A stretch of 64,000 nt of DNA from a virus (lineage: Duplodnaviria > Heunggongvirae > Uroviricota > Caudoviricetes), in IMG/VR virus record IMGVR_UViG_3300033069_001798, positions 1 through 64,000 of that record; one strand, 5' to 3'. The position numbers and the translations under genes are program-made. Shown piece after piece: positions 2 to 12,018 of this stretch (position 1 is the stretch's first letter; each line of letters begins with the position of its first letter). A model generated the notes under the pieces. It made no database searches, was not told the origin of the DNA, and saw only the letters and a program-made list of their open reading frames with translations.

Positions 2-235
2 GTTCTGGTCGTTCCCACGTTCAAGAGAATTTCAATGAATCCGCACGAGGCAGATCACTTCCTCAAAGTGAGGCAATCAAAGATTGCAGATGATTTCGCC
101 GTAAACTTCTGCGTTGCTGTATACGTAAACAGCTTCAAAGTTGACGGTTTGCAGTACGTGTGGATCTTGCTACCAGACGGTCGTGTTATCTCTACGTACG
201 CCGGCTCCGTTAAAGAGCTGCAGTGGGTTGAATGA
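2..235 (+). CDS. small GDLV-family protein (5' end outside window)
   Basis: The frame is open back to the window start ('…LVVPTFKRIS MNPHEADHF…'). C-terminal 'ILLPDGRVI…ELQWVE'. Confidence 0.45.
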   Translation, partial: VLVVPTFKRISMNPHEADHFLKVRQSKIADDFAVNFCVAVYVNSFKVDGLQYVWILLPDGRVISTYAGSVKELQWVE

Positions 236-459
236 ATATCGAACCTGGAGATCTTGTCTGCTCGAAGAGCAAGTTCATATCAACCTGCAATCCGATATCT
301 GGTTATTACCTGGGTCAGTGCTTGGTTGACGATGAAGTGTTGCTGTGCGTCGGTGTCTTCATTATCGAGCCTACCCAGTTTCATCGCAATCGCATCATGG
401 TGATGCGCGAAACTGGTGAGCTGGTTGTTACGTACGTCGACAACGTGTTTTTCATCTGA
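232..459 (+). CDS. small GDLV-family protein
   Basis: 'MNIEPGDLVCS'; ATGA overlap with the previous stop; C-terminal 'ETGELVVTYV'. Confidence 0.5.
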   Translation: MNIEPGDLVCSKSKFISTCNPISGYYLGQCLVDDEVLLCVGVFIIEPTQFHRNRIMVMRETGELVVTYVDNVFFI

Positions 460-471
460 TGAGGTGTCGCT

Positions 472-633
472 ATGAAAGTTGGTGACTTGGTTGTCCCACG
501 AAAAAATTATTTGCCAGAAGCGTGCATCATCATAGGGTTTGGTCAGCTCAAGTCAGGAGCGACTTGGGCTTGGGTCTTGCTGTTCAGCGGACGCGTCAAC
601 AGATACTACGTTGGTGCACTAGAGCTGCTATGA
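472..633 (+). CDS. small GDLV-family protein (53 aa)
   Basis: Translated by hand: MKVGDLVVPRKNYLPEACIIIGFGQLKSGATWAWVLLFSGRVNRYYVGALELL. GAGGTG Shine-Dalgarno 6 nt upstream. It falls below the ORF-track length cutoff. Confidence 0.5.
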   Translation: MKVGDLVVPRKNYLPEACIIIGFGQLKSGATWAWVLLFSGRVNRYYVGALELL

Positions 634-848
634 AGATCGGCGATCTGGTCTGCAGCGACTCGAGAGATCTGTACGTCCTCACGTTGAAAGCACCCTATGA
701 ATATGGTCTTCACGGCTTCGAAGTTCCCGGTTCTGGACCTTTCGTGTACGTTGGTATTAGCGGTCGTGGCAACGGAAGCTTGGTTCTTATCTTGCTTCCG
801 TCTGGTGTCTTGGTAGAAGTTCATCCATCAAGACTAAGGCCTTTGTAA
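630..848 (+). CDS. small GDLV-family protein
   Basis: 'MKIGDLVCS…ILLPSGVLVEV'; ATGA overlap. The track ORF 522-848 carries a spurious N-terminal extension. Confidence 0.55.
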   Translation: MKIGDLVCSDSRDLYVLTLKAPYEYGLHGFEVPGSGPFVYVGISGRGNGSLVLILLPSGVLVEVHPSRLRPL

Positions 849-888
849 CGCTGTGCACTGGTGCCACAAAATGGGTTACAATTGTTAG

Positions 889-1137
889 ATGGCAGTGACA
901 CTTCCGGGTGACATGGTGATTCTACAATCGCATGGAAGTACGTACGTGACGACCATTTCACTGCATGAGGACGGCGCGCGGCTCGTGTATAAAGATTTCA
1001 AGCCCACAGATGAAGAATGCCGAGCAGCTGGCACTTTTCTTGGCACGGTCACGTGGGATGATTGTAACCTCGCTGTCGTATTGTTCCGCGGTGAGATCTG
1101 GGTCTCTTTCCCGCACCAGTTCAAGGTTGTCAAGTGA
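889..1137 (+). CDS. small GDLV-family protein
   Basis: 'LPGDMVILQ…VVLFRGEIWV'. Confidence 0.5.
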   Translation: MAVTLPGDMVILQSHGSTYVTTISLHEDGARLVYKDFKPTDEECRAAGTFLGTVTWDDCNLAVVLFRGEIWVSFPHQFKVVK

Positions 1138-1301
1138 GCGATTCATTTCGTAGCGGTGACTTGGTTAACTGGGGCGCCCAGCGCGTCGTGTACATCTACT
1201 TGTGTCGTTGTGATCCGGATTCTGCACTCGCTTACGTTATAGCACCGAATGGGCGGATTGATTGGTTCTACGTCTGTGATCTGAAGCACGCGGAGCAATG
1301 A
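1134..1301 (+). CDS. small GDLV-family protein (GTG start)
   Basis: GTGA overlap; 'SFRSGDLVNW…IAPNGRIDWFYV'; 55 aa, translated by hand. Confidence 0.45.
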   Translation: MSDSFRSGDLVNWGAQRVVYIYLCRCDPDSALAYVIAPNGRIDWFYVCDLKHAEQ

Positions 1302-1471
1302 TGAAATCCGGGGATCTGGTCTATTGGATCTACGATAACCACGTAATACCAAAGAGGTCAGTGTTGATCTACGTGGGCACGGACCATGTTCACCCTAGCA
1401 TTGCCTGCGTTGTCTGCTCGTCTGGGCAAGTTGCCTGGGCGTACGCAAGCGAGCTGAGAGAGCTGCTATGA
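1301..1471 (+). CDS. small GDLV-family protein
   Basis: 'MKSGDLVYW…VCSSGQVAWAY…ELRELL'; 56 aa; ATGA overlap. Confidence 0.5.
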   Translation: MKSGDLVYWIYDNHVIPKRSVLIYVGTDHVHPSIACVVCSSGQVAWAYASELRELL

Positions 1472-10080: not shown

Positions 10081-10304
10081 TGTACCCAGGAGACGTGTTC
10101 GCGTACACAGTTTCACCAAAGGCTTGGTACTTGTGCATCGGCGTCAAGGAGCTCGGGCGCAATAACATCTGGGTCACTTGCGTATTCTTCAAAAGTAACG
10201 TAAGCGCTCGTGTGTACGAAGTGCAGATGAAGGCACATGACCCGCAGTGCACCAACGGCGCCAAGATCGTGCTCTCTAGCTGCCCACAGAATATTCAGCG
10301 ATAA
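10077..10304 (+). CDS. small GDLV-family protein
   Basis: 'MMYPGDVFAY'; ATGA overlap. Confidence 0.45.
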   Translation: MMYPGDVFAYTVSPKAWYLCIGVKELGRNNIWVTCVFFKSNVSARVYEVQMKAHDPQCTNGAKIVLSSCPQNIQR

Positions 10305-10353
10305 TGCGTTGCAGTTATCCACAGCCTAATTCAGTGAGTAAAATGAGAGCATC

Positions 10354-10581
10354 GTGACTGACACCTTCAAGAGCGGTGATCTCGTTCGCCTCGAAGCGGG
10401 CGGCAAGTTCTTGAGCGTGAACATATATTCGATAAAAAGCAACGATCAATGCATAAAAGGTCTAGATCGAAACAGCATCGCCCTAGTGATCAATTACATT
10501 GATGGTTCTTTGCTGCTTCTGGTGAACGAATCAGTCGGTTGGATTCACGTTCCGATATTTCTTGGGATACGTCACCTATGA
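10354..10581 (+). CDS. small GDLV-family protein (GTG start)
   Basis: '(M)TDTFKSGDLVRL'. Confidence 0.5.
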   Translation: MTDTFKSGDLVRLEAGGKFLSVNIYSIKSNDQCIKGLDRNSIALVINYIDGSLLLLVNESVGWIHVPIFLGIRHL

Positions 10582-10811
10582 GCAGAATAAAACCTGGTGA
10601 TCTCATTCAACTCAATGAAAACAGCCCATACGCAACTGTGTACCTCTTCACACTTCATAGCGCGCGTATGGGCACTACCGGCAAGGAAAGAAGAGTTACG
10701 AAAGCTGATCTTTGCACCGTGATATCAATCGTCAGTGATGAACTGTTCATATTGTGCAATGATATCATTGGTTGGACTTCACTTACGTCGTACTTTAACG
10801 TGGTATCATGA
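10578..10811 (+). CDS. small GDLV-family protein
   Basis: 'MSRIKPGDLIQL'; ATGA overlap. Confidence 0.5.
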   Translation: MSRIKPGDLIQLNENSPYATVYLFTLHSARMGTTGKERRVTKADLCTVISIVSDELFILCNDIIGWTSLTSYFNVVS

Positions 10812-11038
10812 TCCTCTACAAGCCTGGATCTCTAGTGCAATCTTCGCACGAAGTTCACCTTTACTTGAGGTCTAAAACTAATGGCGACATCGATGGCTCG
10901 GCCGGCTTTGTGCTTGGTGGAACGCTCATGACAGTGATATCAGTGAATGAAACTGAAGAAGGTAGCGTAGATTTGCTGGTCTACACGGGTGATTCGATTG
11001 GTTGGGTTTACTCTCGCTACGTTAGATTCATCTCATGA
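10808..11038 (+). CDS. small GDLV-family protein
   Basis: 'MILYKPGSLVQS'. Confidence 0.5.
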   Translation: MILYKPGSLVQSSHEVHLYLRSKTNGDIDGSAGFVLGGTLMTVISVNETEEGSVDLLVYTGDSIGWVYSRYVRFIS

Positions 11039-11268
11039 TCGCTGGTGAGCTCGTCAAGCCGTGCAAAAACATAATCGGCGTGTATTACATCGGAACCAGT
11101 CGTAATATTGATGGCGAAATATACTTCTACAAGCACAATAAAATCGTGAAGCGCACCGACATGTACGTGTACATCACAAACATTAAGTGGGCCGGCACTG
11201 ACTACAGCATGCTTCTTCTAGGCGATCAGATGGTGTATTTGTACTCTGGAGAAGTTGATCCGATATGA
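11035..11268 (+). CDS. small GDLV-family protein
   Basis: 'MIAGELVKP…MLLLGDQMVYLY'. Confidence 0.5.
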   Translation: MIAGELVKPCKNIIGVYYIGTSRNIDGEIYFYKHNKIVKRTDMYVYITNIKWAGTDYSMLLLGDQMVYLYSGEVDPI

Positions 11269-11483
11269 AATCAGGAGACCTTCTTGTCTTCAACAGAAGA
11301 AAGCGGTTCGTGAGCGTCTACAGATCCAAGCCAGACATCACAACAACCAGGGGCAAAGTCATGCTAGGTGCTCACTTGGCGGTTGCTCTCATCGTTGAAC
11401 CGATGCACTCTTTCGTGCTTCTGACAGGCAATGGTGATATCAGGATGCGATGGGTTGAAACCCAGGATCTGACTGAGGCATGA
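11265..11483 (+). CDS. small GDLV-family protein
   Basis: 'MKSGDLLVF…VLLTGNGDIRMRWV'. Confidence 0.5.
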   Translation: MKSGDLLVFNRRKRFVSVYRSKPDITTTRGKVMLGAHLAVALIVEPMHSFVLLTGNGDIRMRWVETQDLTEA

Positions 11484-11713
11484 CTTACAGCGTAGGCGAT
11501 CTAATCAAGCTAAGCCCACACATGTATCACACATCGATGCGTGTTGGCAACTTGCGCGAAGTACACGGCAAGGTAGTTAACATCATGCCAGATGATCTGA
11601 TGATTGTTCTTGGTGGATTTATCCTTGCTGAAGAGTACCAGTACTTGTTTGTCATGAGTGCGAGTCACAATGAGATTGGTTTTGTTTCTGCACGTGCTGT
11701 GGAGCGCACATGA
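11480..11713 (+). CDS. small GDLV-family protein
   Basis: 'MTYSVGDLIKL'. Confidence 0.5.
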   Translation: MTYSVGDLIKLSPHMYHTSMRVGNLREVHGKVVNIMPDDLMIVLGGFILAEEYQYLFVMSASHNEIGFVSARAVERT

Positions 11714-12018
11714 ACATCAGAGACTTGAAGTCTGGTGATCTGATCGTCTGCACAAGGCGTTCTTCTCTGTGGTATCCTACAACGAACCGGTACTATCATG
11801 GTGAAGTTGTGCACAAGGGTGACATAGCGATCGTTGTCTCGTACAACGTGCAGCACAGCGATTCGTCATCTGCAGACATGTACAGCATAACAGTCATCTG
11901 GAGGGGTGCAGCGTGCAGGACTCACGTATCTATCGATGCAACAGCGCTAGCATGGTCGACAATCGACGGTGAACCGCTAGAGATATTACTTTTTGTACAA
12001 GCAGCTGCTAGTAGGTGA
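11710..12018 (+). CDS. small GDLV-family protein (last of array)
   Basis: 'LKSGDLIVC'; ends 75 nt before the MVP start. Confidence 0.5.
   Translation: MNIRDLKSGDLIVCTRRSSLWYPTTNRYYHGEVVHKGDIAIVVSYNVQHSDSSSADMYSITVIWRGAACRTHVSIDATALAWSTIDGEPLEILLFVQAAASR

What the first reader, a model, noticed from the sequence alone, without database searches (positions are those of the whole stretch)
2..12018. Uninterrupted tandem array of ~51 divergent small paralogous genes, with ~13 dispersed copies
Fifty-one consecutive + strand genes of 53-105 aa occupy 12 kb with no intervening genes. Nearly every junction is an ATGA or GTGA stop/start overlap.

All products share an N-terminal (K/P)-x-G-D-L-V motif 3-10 residues in, a central hydrophobic block and a C-terminal '(V/I)(L/F)LP(D/S/N)G.(I/V)…Y…E.L' block. 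Nucleotide identity between neighbours is low, so these are ancient, diversified duplications and not a recent repeat.

Extra copies sit at 15580-16720 and 21864-22957, one inverted copy at 22946-23143, and a four-gene minus-strand sub-array at 42212-43144 with a 'PGxL' variant. The window therefore holds more than 60 copies.

The motif resembles a KOW/SH3-like small beta-barrel, and the length and pattern recall DUF2158-type miniproteins. A family this large, this diversified and this regularly packed is highly unusual. It suggests a diversified binder or decoy repertoire (anti-defence), or packaged cargo or structural adaptor proteins.
Basis: seen in the sequence. Interest (0 to 1): 0.88.

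Follow-up and report, generated by a model that had tools for sequence, protein, structure and literature searches.

The report
Shuffling array of SH3-like phage miniproteins
An uncultured giant bacteriophage carries about 76 back-to-back genes for tiny, highly diverged SH3-like proteins of a family absent from the two libraries scanned (Pfam, PHROGs), and closely related strains differ by whole-gene gains, losses and moves, which resembles the fast-changing host-interaction gene families of large viruses.

Summary
The core observation is real. Window 2-12018 holds 51 head-to-tail + strand genes of 53-105 aa. Of 50 junctions, 31 are ATGA/GTGA overlaps and 41 overlap in some way. 47 of 50 genes carry the N-terminal G-D-L-V-type motif, and there is no nucleotide-level repeat.

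This is the 3' two-thirds of a ~17 kb, ~76-gene array in a jumbo phage (313,755-bp contig). In every strain of the lineage whose locus reaches the array's 3' end, it ends at a Major-Vault-Protein-like gene.

Related strains carry about nine different unit orders drawn from 119 unit types. Most breakpoints lie within about 60 nt of a gene start, and the two junctions read base by base cross over in 8-11 nt of identity in or next to the GDL-coding motif. Orthologue dN/dS is 0.30, against 0.013-0.046 for MVP and GroEL.

Similar arrays occur on contigs of 41%, 46% and 61% GC.

Only 2 of ~13 claimed dispersed copies are confirmed, and DUF2158 membership is not supported.

Function is inferred, not shown: most likely a birth-and-death repertoire of small binders for counter-defence or host takeover.

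The parts
2..12018 (+). 3' two-thirds (51 units) of a tandem array of SH3-like miniprotein genes. The full array has about 76 units over about 16.8 kb in the reference strain (L006/L011).
   Evidence: ORF tiling. Family HMM. Upstream extension.
2..235 (+). unit 1, 5' end cut by the window edge (full orthologue 81 aa)
   Evidence: Self-inclusive family HMM E 1.1e-8. Orthologue P0021.
232..459 (+). unit 2 (75 aa), the member modelled by AlphaFold2
472..633 (+). unit 3 (53 aa, the shortest)
   Evidence: HMM E 8.6e-10
630..848 (+). unit 4. Its first 20 nt are the reference copy of the recurrent gene-start motif ATGAAGATCGGCGATCTGGT.
   Evidence: HMM E 3.9e-11. Repeat family D1.
889..1137 (+). unit 5
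   Evidence: HMM E 1.1e-7
1134..1301 (+). unit 6
   Evidence: HMM E 2.7e-8
1298..1471 (+). unit 7
   Evidence: HMM E 1.3e-11
1468..1689 (+). unit 8
   Evidence: HMM E 3.7e-11
1686..1865 (+). unit 9
   Evidence: HMM E 1.6e-12
1862..2074 (+). unit 10
   Evidence: HMM E 3.7e-11
2071..2250 (+). unit 11
   Evidence: HMM E 4.4e-10
2247..2414 (+). unit 12, a divergent and weak member. A strain breakpoint lies 35-36 nt into it.
   Evidence: HMM E 0.12 and 0.01. Breakpoint.
2399..2635 (+). unit 13, a divergent and weak member with its motif displaced to an internal PGDVV
   Evidence: HMM E 0.0044 and 0.034
2632..2862 (+). unit 14
   Evidence: HMM E 1.5e-12
2859..3107 (+). unit 15
   Evidence: HMM E 3.8e-10
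3104..3352 (+). unit 16
   Evidence: HMM E 1.5e-10
3349..3594 (+). unit 17
   Evidence: HMM E 1.2e-10
3591..3866 (+). unit 18
   Evidence: HMM E 7e-9
3860..4123 (+). unit 19. A strain breakpoint lies 25 nt into the gene.
   Evidence: HMM E 1.4e-10. Breakpoint.
4136..4402 (+). unit 20
   Evidence: HMM E 1.1e-7
4463..4702 (+). unit 21 (PGML variant of the motif)
   Evidence: HMM E 4.1e-9
4695..4943 (+). unit 22
   Evidence: HMM E 3.1e-9
4940..5155 (+). unit 23
   Evidence: HMM E 9.8e-9
5181..5444 (+). unit 24
   Evidence: HMM E 1.1e-18
5420..5647 (+). unit 25 (overlaps unit 24 by 25 nt)
   Evidence: HMM E 1.4e-13
5644..5916 (+). unit 26
   Evidence: HMM E 5.7e-15
5892..6134 (+). unit 27
   Evidence: HMM E 3.3e-16
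6127..6369 (+). unit 28
   Evidence: HMM E 6.3e-16
6362..6592 (+). unit 29
   Evidence: HMM E 9.5e-17
6589..6822 (+). unit 30
   Evidence: HMM E 5e-16
6819..7115 (+). unit 31
   Evidence: HMM E 5.3e-10
7112..7336 (+). unit 32
   Evidence: HMM E 9.4e-6
7333..7587 (+). unit 33
   Evidence: HMM E 1.6e-18
7584..7838 (+). unit 34
   Evidence: HMM E 2e-10
7835..8080 (+). unit 35
   Evidence: HMM E 1.4e-7
8088..8294 (+). unit 36. Units 36-38 (unit types 77-79) stand where the reference strain has types 62-64.
   Evidence: HMM E 1.2e-12. Cassette map.
8325..8642 (+). unit 37 (105 aa). It gives two partial domain matches and may be a fused or degenerate double unit.
   Evidence: HMM E 3.6e-9 with two stretches
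8639..8866 (+). unit 38
   Evidence: HMM E 2.8e-15
8866..9081 (+). unit 39
   Evidence: HMM E 1.5e-13
9063..9305 (+). unit 40
   Evidence: HMM E 6.3e-7
9302..9550 (+). unit 41
   Evidence: HMM E 7.5e-5
9550..9807 (+). unit 42
   Evidence: HMM E 4.2e-8
9847..10080 (+). unit 43
   Evidence: HMM E 6.2e-9
10077..10304 (+). unit 44
   Evidence: HMM E 2.4e-7
10354..10581 (+). unit 45 ('GW' subtype, shared with the arrays on the 41% and 61% GC contigs)
   Evidence: HMM E 1.4e-4. Alignment A2.
10578..10811 (+). unit 46 ('GW' subtype)
   Evidence: HMM E 5.2e-8
10808..11038 (+). unit 47 ('GW' subtype)
   Evidence: HMM E 5.6e-10
11035..11268 (+). unit 48
   Evidence: HMM E 3.2e-10
11265..11483 (+). unit 49
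   Evidence: HMM E 2.5e-6
11480..11713 (+). unit 50
   Evidence: HMM E 1.6e-11
11710..12018 (+). unit 51 (102 aa), the last unit, directly before the MVP-like gene
   Evidence: HMM E 7.7e-10
22718..22957 (+). dispersed family member (79 aa)
   Evidence: 84-member HMM E 1.5e-8
22946..23143 (-). dispersed family member, inverted (65 aa)
   Evidence: 84-member HMM E 4.5e-4
12094..14775 (+). Major-Vault-Protein-like gene. It is the array's 3' neighbour in every strain of the lineage whose locus reaches the array's 3' end.
   Evidence: Pfam MVP_shoulder 2e-30, Vault_3, Band_7. Adjacency in L003, L011, L012, L017 and L022. dN/dS 0.013.

Best explanation
SHOWN. Window 2-12018 is the distal 51 units of a ~76-unit, ~17-kb head-to-tail gene array in an uncultured jumbo phage.
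- Each unit encodes one 53-105-aa SH3-like beta-barrel.
- The scaffold is conserved: an N-terminal (K/P)xGDLV strand, a central hydrophobic strand ending in Gly, a tight turn before the fourth strand, and a 3-10 turn plus a last strand.
- Length varies most in the RT-loop-equivalent region (2-41 aa), and also in the n-Src-equivalent loop (1-19 aa) and in the N- and C-terminal extensions.
- Surface charge is very variable (pI 4-10).
- The array evolves by birth and death of whole units. Strains that are 90-100% identical in shared DNA differ by block deletions, insertions, replacements and transpositions.
- Most breakpoints fall within about 60 nt of a gene start, many of them in the first 20-40 nt. 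In the two junctions read base by base, crossover occurred in 8-11 nt of identity (CAGGCGATCTG, which encodes the GDL motif, and GATGAAGA, at the start codon). Such events remove or add in-frame units.
- Units are under purifying but relaxed selection. Their omega is 0.3, about 6-20 times that of MVP and GroEL.

INFERRED.
- The units are made from long polycistronic messages with translational coupling. The basis is 41 of 50 overlapping junctions, SD-like motifs, and no excess of promoter or terminator matches.
- They act inside the infected cell as a repertoire of small single-domain binders.
- Most likely they are inhibitors or decoys aimed at polymorphic host proteins (defence systems, toxins or takeover targets), so each strain carries its own assortment.

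The descriptive part is about 0.9 likely. The functional part (counter-defence or host-takeover binder repertoire) is about 0.35-0.4 likely.
For: Gene structure and coding status:
- ORF tiling and overlaps.
- SD-like motif in 28 of 50 starts against 20% background.
- Pooled orthologue dN/dS 0.30 over 21 pairs at dS 0.11, and 0.36-0.45 in other strain pairs, against MVP 0.013, GroEL 0.046 and a 159-aa neighbour 0.065.

Fold:
- AF2 pLDDT 86.8, strands plus a 3-10 turn in SH3 order.

Scaffold and variable regions:
- The RT region has a length sd of 8 aa and the n-Src loop 3.2, against about 1 for most strands.
- Conserved positions are Gly or hydrophobic only.
- pI ranges from 4.1 to 10.1.

Turnover:
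- Cassette maps show 119 unit types and about 9 orders in 13 loci.
- The same junctions recur in independent assemblies: W and L012; L007 and L010; the 9-83-84-85 block in L003, L009 and L017.
- Most block ends lie between -1 and +57 nt of a gene start.
- Hybrid junction sequences were read directly.
- The gene-start 20-mer is the only recurrent DNA in the array.

Lineage restriction:
- Only 36 hits with E<=1e-3 among 1.84 billion representatives, mostly orthologues from this lineage plus a few low-complexity proteins.
- No Pfam, PHROG, PDB-sequence or GenBank-phage match.

Array organisation is a property of the family:
- L020 (41% GC): 7 of 7 ATGA/GTGA-overlapped units.
- L016 (61% GC): 7 HMM-supported units.
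- L021 (46% GC): about 15-20 looser units.

Precedent:
- Tandem non-identical immunity paralogues that recombine through conserved blocks (PMC9484751).
- Accordion-type amplification of counter-defence genes in poxviruses and T-even phages (PMC13359090, PMC13096335).
Against: - No member resembles any protein of known function, and no binding partner, expression time or host is known.
- Omega is below 1, so there is no sign of pervasive positive selection.
- Replacements are only marginally denser in the two variable regions than in the rest (7.3% against 5.3%, p=0.054), and the central strand shows the highest rate of any element (8.3%).
- The array's adjacency to the MVP-like gene, in every strain whose locus reaches that end, could point to a vault-related role instead.
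- The strain haplotypes come from short-read metagenome assemblies, although the junction identities (8-11 nt) are shorter than typical assembly k-mers (own knowledge) and the junctions recur across samples.
- Only one array member was modelled structurally.
- No anti-defence protein library was available to scan.
Confidence: 0.4

Rival explanations
1. Vault-associated proteins. The miniproteins are cargo, adaptors or assembly partners of a phage-built vault-like shell made by the adjacent MVP homologue.
For: The array ends 15-75 nt before the MVP-like gene in every strain of the lineage whose locus reaches that end (W, L003, L011, L012, L017, L022). Both are on the same strand. MVP is under very strong constraint (dN/dS 0.013).
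Against: The 462-kb and 735-kb phages with a 45%-identical MVP have no family member within 20 kb of it. L004 (MVP 64% identical) has only a few loose GDL/GDM ORFs and no array. The 11.7 kb held around the L021 cluster has no called MVP gene. A cargo role does not explain why individual units come and go between near-identical strains. No shared docking motif exists beyond fold-determining residues.
Confidence: 0.13
2. Nucleic-acid-binding KOW/Tudor/Sm-like regulators. The units bind RNA or DNA, or transcription and translation machinery, to reprogramme gene expression.
Against: No Pfam KOW, Tudor or LSM hit for any of the 51 members at E<1. Charge is not uniformly basic (median pI 6.5; 18 of 51 below 6). 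There is no conserved surface residue. About 76 paralogues with strain-level presence or absence is hard to reconcile with a core regulatory role.
Confidence: 0.1
3. Largely neutral or selfish proliferation. The units persist because the gene-start microhomology makes duplication easy, and a jumbo capsid tolerates extra DNA. Individual units have little function.
For: Individual units are dispensable between strains. Omega is several-fold higher than in neighbouring genes. There is no recognisable function.
Against: Omega of 0.30-0.45 is well below 1. Reading frames, overlaps and the fold-determining pattern are kept across paralogues that are only 24% identical. The AF2 model is confident. 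The same array organisation is kept on contigs of very different GC content. There are almost no pseudogenised units.
Confidence: 0.15
4. Immunity (antitoxin-like) proteins against polymorphic toxins, as in bacterial orphan-immunity islands. This is a special case of the binder idea, aimed at toxins rather than at anti-phage defence.
For: The architecture and recombination behaviour are the same as esaG and tipC strings (PMC9484751) and the immunity arrays described in PMC3113570 and PMC3482391.
Against: No toxin, secretion-system or Rhs/CDI gene was found among the window proteins scanned. There is no SUKH, DUF600 or Imm family hit.
Confidence: 0.1
5. Not genes: chance ORFs or a non-coding repeat.
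For: None beyond the lack of database matches.
Against: About 98% coding density on one strand with 41 of 50 start/stop overlaps. dN/dS is below 1. Split-half HMM recovery is far above shuffled controls. The fold prediction is confident. There is no DNA repeat.
Confidence: 0.01

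Closest known systems
Multigene families and 'genomic accordions' of large eukaryotic DNA viruses (poxvirus K3L amplification; ASFV MGF families and giant-virus paralogue arrays from own knowledge). 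Reviewed in PMC13359090.
   Same: Tandem, lineage-specific paralogue families in a very large viral genome. Copy content differs between close strains. The families expand and contract by recombination between copies. They are thought to serve host-interaction and counter-defence roles.
   Different: Here the host is a bacterium. The units are single 8-9 kDa SH3-like domains, the copies are old (24% identity) and not recent amplifications, about 76 sit in one uninterrupted array, and the function is untested.
Strings of non-identical T7SS immunity genes (esaG, tipC) in Firmicutes, PMC9484751
   Same: Head-to-tail arrays of diverged paralogues. Short conserved sequence blocks inside the genes act as crossover sites. 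Recombination between paralogues explains gene loss and gain between strains.
   Different: Those are cellular genes of known function (toxin immunity, up to about a dozen copies) next to toxin and secretion genes. They belong to a different protein family. The array here is in a phage, is about six times longer, and has one main homology block at the 5' end.
Segmental amplification of anti-defence loci in T-even phages (SegB-driven, PMC13096335; tifA amplification, 10.1101/2022.04.14.488369)
   Same: Phage loci whose copy number changes by recombination under defence pressure. A Seg-type GIY-YIG endonuclease gene lies 4.6 kb from the array in this window (16611-17480) and is absent from strain L003.
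   Different: Those are recent identical repeats selected in the laboratory. Here the units are ancient, and each is a different protein. No link between the endonuclease and the array was tested.
SH3-like small beta-barrels (bacterial SH3b, KOW of NusG/Spt5, Tudor, PsaE, NdhS)
   Different: No sequence-profile match to any of these Pfam families. These proteins are free-standing and not domains of larger proteins.
   Same: Similar size, and an N-terminal GD-hydrophobic strand (resemblance recalled from memory).
   Different: None of the 51 members hits the Pfam model even at E<1. It should not be filed there.
Clusters of small early or accessory genes in large phages (T4-type hyperplastic regions, SPO1 host-takeover module; own knowledge)
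   Same: Long runs of small, same-strand, tightly packed genes of unknown function that vary between relatives.
   Different: Those clusters are mixtures of unrelated ORFans. Here nearly every gene belongs to one family.

Membership tests
SH3-like small beta-barrel fold | Five main strands in SH3 order, with an RT-type hairpin, n-Src loop, tight distal turn and a 3-10 turn before the last strand | tested here: met
KOW domain (NusG/Spt5/L24 type) | Match to the KOW sequence profile | tested here: not met
DUF2158 (PF09926) | Match to the Pfam profile | tested here: not met
   Per-member hmmscan of all 51 at E<1 lists 18 unrelated single-member chance hits and no DUF2158.
Any PHROG phage protein family | Match to a PHROG profile | tested here: not met
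   The best E among 51 members is 0.014, with one member per family.
Viral multigene family evolving as an accordion | Tandem paralogues of one family in a viral genome | tested here: met
   51 units in the window and about 76 in the reference strain. Viral context: GroEL PHROG, MVP shared with huge phages, IMG/VR contigs.
Viral multigene family evolving as an accordion | Unit content differs between closely related strains through recombination between copies | tested here: met
   About 9 orders and 119 unit types in 13 loci. Most breakpoints lie near gene starts, and two junctions show 8-11 nt of shared sequence.
Viral multigene family evolving as an accordion | Units act on host range or host defence | not testable with these tools
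   Needs a cultured host-phage pair or heterologous assays.
Tandem immunity-gene strings (esaG/tipC type) | Non-identical tandem paralogues that recombine through conserved blocks | tested here: met
   compared with PMC9484751.
Tandem immunity-gene strings (esaG/tipC type) | Linked cognate toxin or secretion genes, and homology to known immunity families | tested here: not met
   No toxin or secretion domains among the window proteins scanned. No immunity-family Pfam hit.
Vault (MVP) partner proteins | Co-occurrence with MVP wherever MVP occurs in related phages | tested here: not met
   Adjacent within the lineage. Absent within 20 kb of MVP in LR756500 and LR756501. No array in L004.
Vault (MVP) partner proteins | Physical binding to MVP or presence inside particles | not testable with these tools
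   No complex prediction or proteomics was available.
Diversity-generating retroelement target | Template and variable repeat pair plus a reverse transcriptase nearby | tested here: not met
   No direct repeat longer than 29 nt in the array. No RT among the scanned window proteins. The window was not scanned exhaustively.

The most novel reading that the evidence does not exclude
The array is a phage-encoded, recombination-shuffled library of SH3-scaffold binders. More than 100 cassette types circulate in the population. The conserved MKxGDLV-coding gene start also serves as the crossover site that deletes, inserts or moves in-frame cassettes. Each phage genome therefore carries its own assortment of inhibitors against polymorphic host defences or toxins. 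This would be a viral counterpart of immune-receptor or antigenic-variation loci that, to my knowledge, has not been described for bacteriophages. A related possibility is that the cassettes are specificity adaptors that load different host proteins into a phage-built vault.
Probability: 0.2. Interest if true: 0.9.

Novelty: new variant of a known kind. Interest (0 to 1): 0.68.

Why it matters
Jumbo-phage genomes are mostly genes of unknown function, and how they grow is an open question.

Here about 5% of a 314-kb phage genome is one protein family that has no match in Pfam or PHROGs. To my knowledge it is arranged in the longest uninterrupted paralogue array reported for a phage, and natural strain variation shows how it is remodelled.

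If the units are binders of host proteins, the locus would be a ready-made library of more than 100 small, stable, single-domain inhibitors. It would also be a natural example of accordion or birth-and-death evolution in phages, on the scale seen in poxviruses, ASFV and giant viruses.

The same organisation on contigs of 41%, 46% and 61% GC suggests a wider, overlooked class of phage loci that sequence searches miss because the units diverge so fast.

Tried and rejected
- Nucleotide repeat or recent duplication: rejected. TRF finds nothing, and the only repeat is the 20-nt gene start. Neighbouring units are barely more alike than distant ones (25.7% against 23.6%).
- DUF2158, KOW, SH3b, Tudor or any Pfam family: no hits. 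PHROGs: none. PDB sequences: only spurious designer-propeller hits.
- GenBank phages: no megablast hit for the array or its flank and no tblastn hit for two members.
- Dispersed copies at 15580-16720, 21864-22714 and 42212-43144: not supported by HMM or hhalign. An AF2 model of 42708-42917 (-) gives four strands, a 12-residue helix and a last strand at pLDDT 80.7.
- Internal promoters and terminators: sigma-70-type and intrinsic-terminator matches are at or below chance. The nine short intergenic gaps share no motif by eye. GCTGTGCAC, seen in two gaps, is not enriched.
- GATC enrichment from the GAT-CTN coding of Asp-Leu: not notable (10.0 against 8.8 per kb).
- Positive selection: pooled omega is 0.30-0.45, and the excess of replacements in the variable regions is marginal.
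- The search for related loci with the family alignment failed for lack of a conserved 7-10-column stretch. AFDB50 was not available.
- Sample accessions were not found in the paper library, so habitat and host remain unknown. No tRNA genes in the window.

Full report
OBSERVATION.

The + strand of window 2-12018 is tiled by 51 small ORFs of 53-105 aa (median 77) with about 98% coding density and nothing in between. The first ORF is cut by the window edge; its orthologue is 81 aa (P0021).

Of 50 junctions, 31 are 4-nt ATGA/GTGA stop/start overlaps, 10 more overlap by 1-25 nt, and 9 have gaps of 7-60 nt. 43 of 51 stop codons are TGA. A G[DTSEA][LIMVY]-type motif lies 4-17 residues in for 47 of 50 products.

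No column is invariant, and mean identity is about 24% with a maximum of 42%.

The relationship is not circular. HMMs trained on alternate genes recover 35 of 51 held-out genes at E<0.01. 39 of 51 beat every shuffled copy and every background ORF of the window. Units 12 and 13 (2247-2635) are the weakest.

There is no DNA-level repeat (TRF none). The only recurring DNA is the ~20-nt gene start ATGAAGATCGGCGATCTGGT.

Two sub-claims were overstated:
- 'Nearly every' junction being ATGA/GTGA is really 62%.
- Of about 13 dispersed copies, only 22718-22957 (+) and 22946-23143 (-) are family members (E 1.5e-8 and 4.5e-4). The other sets share just the PG(D/T/M)L start.

An AF2 model of one minus-strand copy gives four strands, a 12-residue helix and a last strand (pLDDT 80.7). 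It could not be compared formally with the array model.

WHERE IT SITS AND HOW BIG IT REALLY IS.

The window is phage-like. It encodes GroEL (phrog_5725), a 5'-3' exonuclease, dCMP deaminase, RNA ligase, UvdE, Fpg, IF-1, an ADP-ribosylglycohydrolase and an AAA ATPase.

Directly after the array lies a Major-Vault-Protein-like gene (MVP_shoulder 2e-30). Its only GenBank-phage relatives are the 462-kb and 735-kb uncultured phages LR756500, LR756501 and LR756503, at 45% identity.

Exact-protein look-ups place the array on a 313,755-bp JGI contig (Ga0119868_1000001, L006), on a 92-kb Logan contig, and on many shorter contigs from other runs. An 81.6-kb IMG/VR contig is 90-98% identical in shared blocks (L003).

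In the reference strain (L006 plus L011) the array starts about 5 kb upstream of the window's first base and has 76 HMM-supported units over about 16.8 kb. In every strain whose locus reaches the array's 3' end, it ends at the MVP-like gene.

THE PROTEIN FAMILY.

None of the 51 members hits Pfam at E<1, or PHROGs at a meaningful level. A profile search of PDB sequences gives nothing real.

An exhaustive HMMER search of 1.84 billion representatives finds only 36 proteins at E<=1e-3. Most are orthologues from this same lineage, a few are low-complexity repeat proteins, and four small proteins come from other genomes.

AlphaFold2 on unit 2, with the 51 paralogues as the alignment, gives a confident all-beta model (pLDDT 86.8, pTM 0.73). 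Its element order is that of an SH3 domain: first strand, a hairpin in the RT-loop position, a long central strand, a loop in the n-Src position, a strand, a tight turn, a strand, a 3-10 turn and a last strand.

Membership of KOW or DUF2158 is not.

Across 84 non-redundant members, length variation is concentrated in the RT region (2-41 aa) and the n-Src loop (1-19 aa). The N- and C-terminal extensions also vary, while most strands hardly vary.

Conserved positions are glycines and core hydrophobics. pI runs from 4.1 to 10.1, with a median of 6.5. Cys is 2.6% against 1.1% in the window's large proteins.

ARE THEY REAL GENES?

Orthologous units between strains give a pooled dN/dS of 0.30 (21 pairs, dS 0.11) and 0.36-0.45 in other comparisons.

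The same strain pair gives 0.013 for MVP, 0.046 for GroEL and 0.065 for a 159-aa neighbour. Two other neighbours, a 254-aa and a 710-aa protein, are as relaxed as the array (0.26 and 0.48).

The units are therefore protein-coding and constrained, but they change about 6-20 times faster at replacement sites than MVP and GroEL.

SD-like motifs precede 28 of 50 starts, against 20% expected and 48% for the window's large genes. Consensus promoters and terminators are not enriched. Together with the overlaps, this suggests long translationally coupled polycistronic messages. That is an inference.

HOW THE ARRAY EVOLVES.

This is the main new result. Clustering units at 70% or more identity across 13 loci of the lineage gives 119 unit types and about nine different orders (first seen). 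In the numbering:
- The window and L012 carry reference units 27-76, with types 77-79 in place of 62-64, and 80 in place of 71.
- L007 and L010 jump from unit 10 to unit 24.
- L008 jumps from unit 7 to unit 20.
- L003 has block 4-9 plus new units inserted between 37 and 38, and lacks 45-55.
- L017 and L022 carry further blocks not seen elsewhere.

Shared blocks are 90-100% identical at the DNA level. The same junctions recur in independent assemblies, which argues against misassembly.

Most block ends lie between -1 and +57 nt of a gene start, and many are at +19 to +41.

Two deletion junctions read base by base are hybrids. One crosses over inside CAGGCGATCTG, the codons of (T/S)GDL. The other crosses over in GATGAAGA at the start codon. 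Short identity at or next to the coding sequence of the conserved N-terminal motif is thus the substrate for whole-unit, in-frame loss, gain and transposition.

Neighbouring units are barely more alike than distant ones (25.7% against 23.6%). The duplications themselves are therefore old, and present-day change is mostly sorting of old cassettes.

BEYOND THIS LINEAGE.

Four distant hits led to other arrays:
- L020 (41% GC): seven of seven consecutive 84-88-aa ATGA/GTGA-overlapped units, 36-52% identical to one another.
- L016 (61% GC): seven HMM-supported units on a 3.6-kb contig made of small same-strand genes.
- L015 and L021 (41% and 46% GC; L021 is from a 50-kb contig): about 15-20 looser 'MKPGDLV' units beside adenylosuccinate-synthetase-like and lyase genes.

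Array organisation is therefore a property of the family, not an accident of one genome.

By contrast, the 20 kb on each side of MVP in the 462-kb and 735-kb phages holds no member. L004 (MVP 64% identical) has only a few loose GDL/GDM ORFs.

WHAT IT MOST LIKELY DOES.

Nothing here measures function, so what follows is inference. Five features point the same way:
- a rigid small scaffold with variable loops and variable charge;
- no conserved surface or catalytic residue;
- individually dispensable units;
- strain-specific assortments;
- relaxed but real constraint.

Together they are the signature of a repertoire of binders engaged with variable partners.

The closest precedents are host-interaction multigene families of large eukaryotic viruses that evolve as accordions (review PMC13359090). 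Another is the strings of non-identical toxin-immunity genes that recombine through conserved blocks (PMC9484751). A third is laboratory-observed amplification of anti-defence loci in T-even phages, there driven by a Seg-type GIY-YIG endonuclease (PMC13096335).

A Seg-like GIY-YIG gene sits 4.6 kb from the array at 16611-17480 and is missing from strain L003. This link is suggestive only.

I therefore favour an intracellular counter-defence or host-takeover binder repertoire, at about 0.35-0.4.

Rivals:
- Vault partners or cargo (about 0.13). The conserved adjacency supports it. The absence of the array next to MVP in more distant phages, and the strain-level dispensability of units, argue against it.
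- KOW/Tudor-like nucleic-acid binders (about 0.1). The mixed charge and the lack of profile hits argue against it.
- Toxin immunity (about 0.1). No toxin context was found.
- Near-neutral selfish proliferation (about 0.15). Omega below 1 and conservation of the organisation across GC classes argue against it.
- 'Not genes' is excluded.

NOVELTY.

The kind of thing, a viral multigene family evolving by birth and death, is known. What appears new:
- the protein family itself;
- its scale in a bacteriophage (about 76 contiguous units, about 5% of the genome, 119 types in the population);
- the direct view of unit shuffling at a motif-encoded microhomology;
- its recurrence as arrays on compositionally unrelated contigs.

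I found no description of it in the searched literature. Phage MVPs have been noted only in a preprint that does not mention such arrays (10.1101/2023.11.10.566534).

I rate it a new variant of a known kind, with interest 0.68.

Noticed in passing
window 12094-14775 (+): Full-length Major-Vault-Protein homologue (MVP_shoulder, Vault repeats, SPFH/Band_7) in a jumbo phage. It is under very strong purifying selection (dN/dS 0.013) and is 45% identical to genes in the 462-kb and 735-kb uncultured phages. Phage MVPs are so far described only in a 2023 preprint on gut phages.
   Followed up: partly
window 16611-17480 (-): SegE-like GIY-YIG homing-endonuclease gene. It is present here but replaced by about 30 nt in the closely related contig L003, so it is probably mobile. 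It lies 4.6 kb from the array, and Seg endonucleases drive segmental amplification in T-even phages (PMC13096335).
   Followed up: partly
window 20788-21297 (-): Phage-encoded translation initiation factor IF-1 homologue (Pfam eIF-1a, 1.3e-18) with an N-terminal extension.
   Followed up: partly
window 23535-25160 (-), 28729-29481 (-), 25506-26438 (-), 30053-30868 (-), 33490-34296 (-), 37655-38677 (-), 54928-55683 (-): Auxiliary gene set typical of huge phages: GroEL, ADP-ribosylglycohydrolase (possibly counter-defence), UvdE endonuclease, Fpg/Nei glycosylase, papain-like protease, RNA ligase and a carbon-nitrogen hydrolase.
   Followed up: no
window about 20000-23200: Transcription switches from the + strand block (array, MVP, small genes) to a long - strand block, and cumulative GC skew peaks here. 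The two confirmed dispersed family copies sit tail-to-tail at this convergence point.
   Followed up: no
L006 1902-2843 (+), about 2 kb upstream of the first HMM-supported unit in the reference strain: A 313-aa protein with three GRGRP AT-hook-like motifs flanked by PGDL/IGDK-type segments that look barrel-like by eye. A shorter orthologue exists in L004 (1126-1731). It has no Pfam hit. It may link this kind of domain to DNA binding.
   Followed up: partly
L006 773-4289 (+); window 42212-43144 (-): A second group of small genes with a PG(T/D)L(L/V)xW-type start and a 10-25-aa N-terminal extension. It is not detectably homologous to the array family. AF2 of one member gives four strands, a helix and a last strand (pLDDT 80.7).
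   Followed up: partly
window 8325-8642 (+): Unit 37 (105 aa) matches the family profile in two partial stretches and lacks the N-terminal motif. It may be a fusion or a decaying double unit created by recombination.
   Followed up: no
L021 729-1721 and 4442-5710: A distinct 46% GC contig with a looser array of the family also carries adenylosuccinate-synthetase-like (PurA/PurZ-type) and adenylosuccinate-lyase genes, which raises the possibility of a phage with modified purine metabolism.
   Followed up: no
window 2-12018: Array proteins are about 2.2-fold enriched in cysteine (2.6% against 1.1%) and poorer in Lys, Glu and Ala than the window's large proteins. The Cys positions are not conserved.
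   Followed up: no
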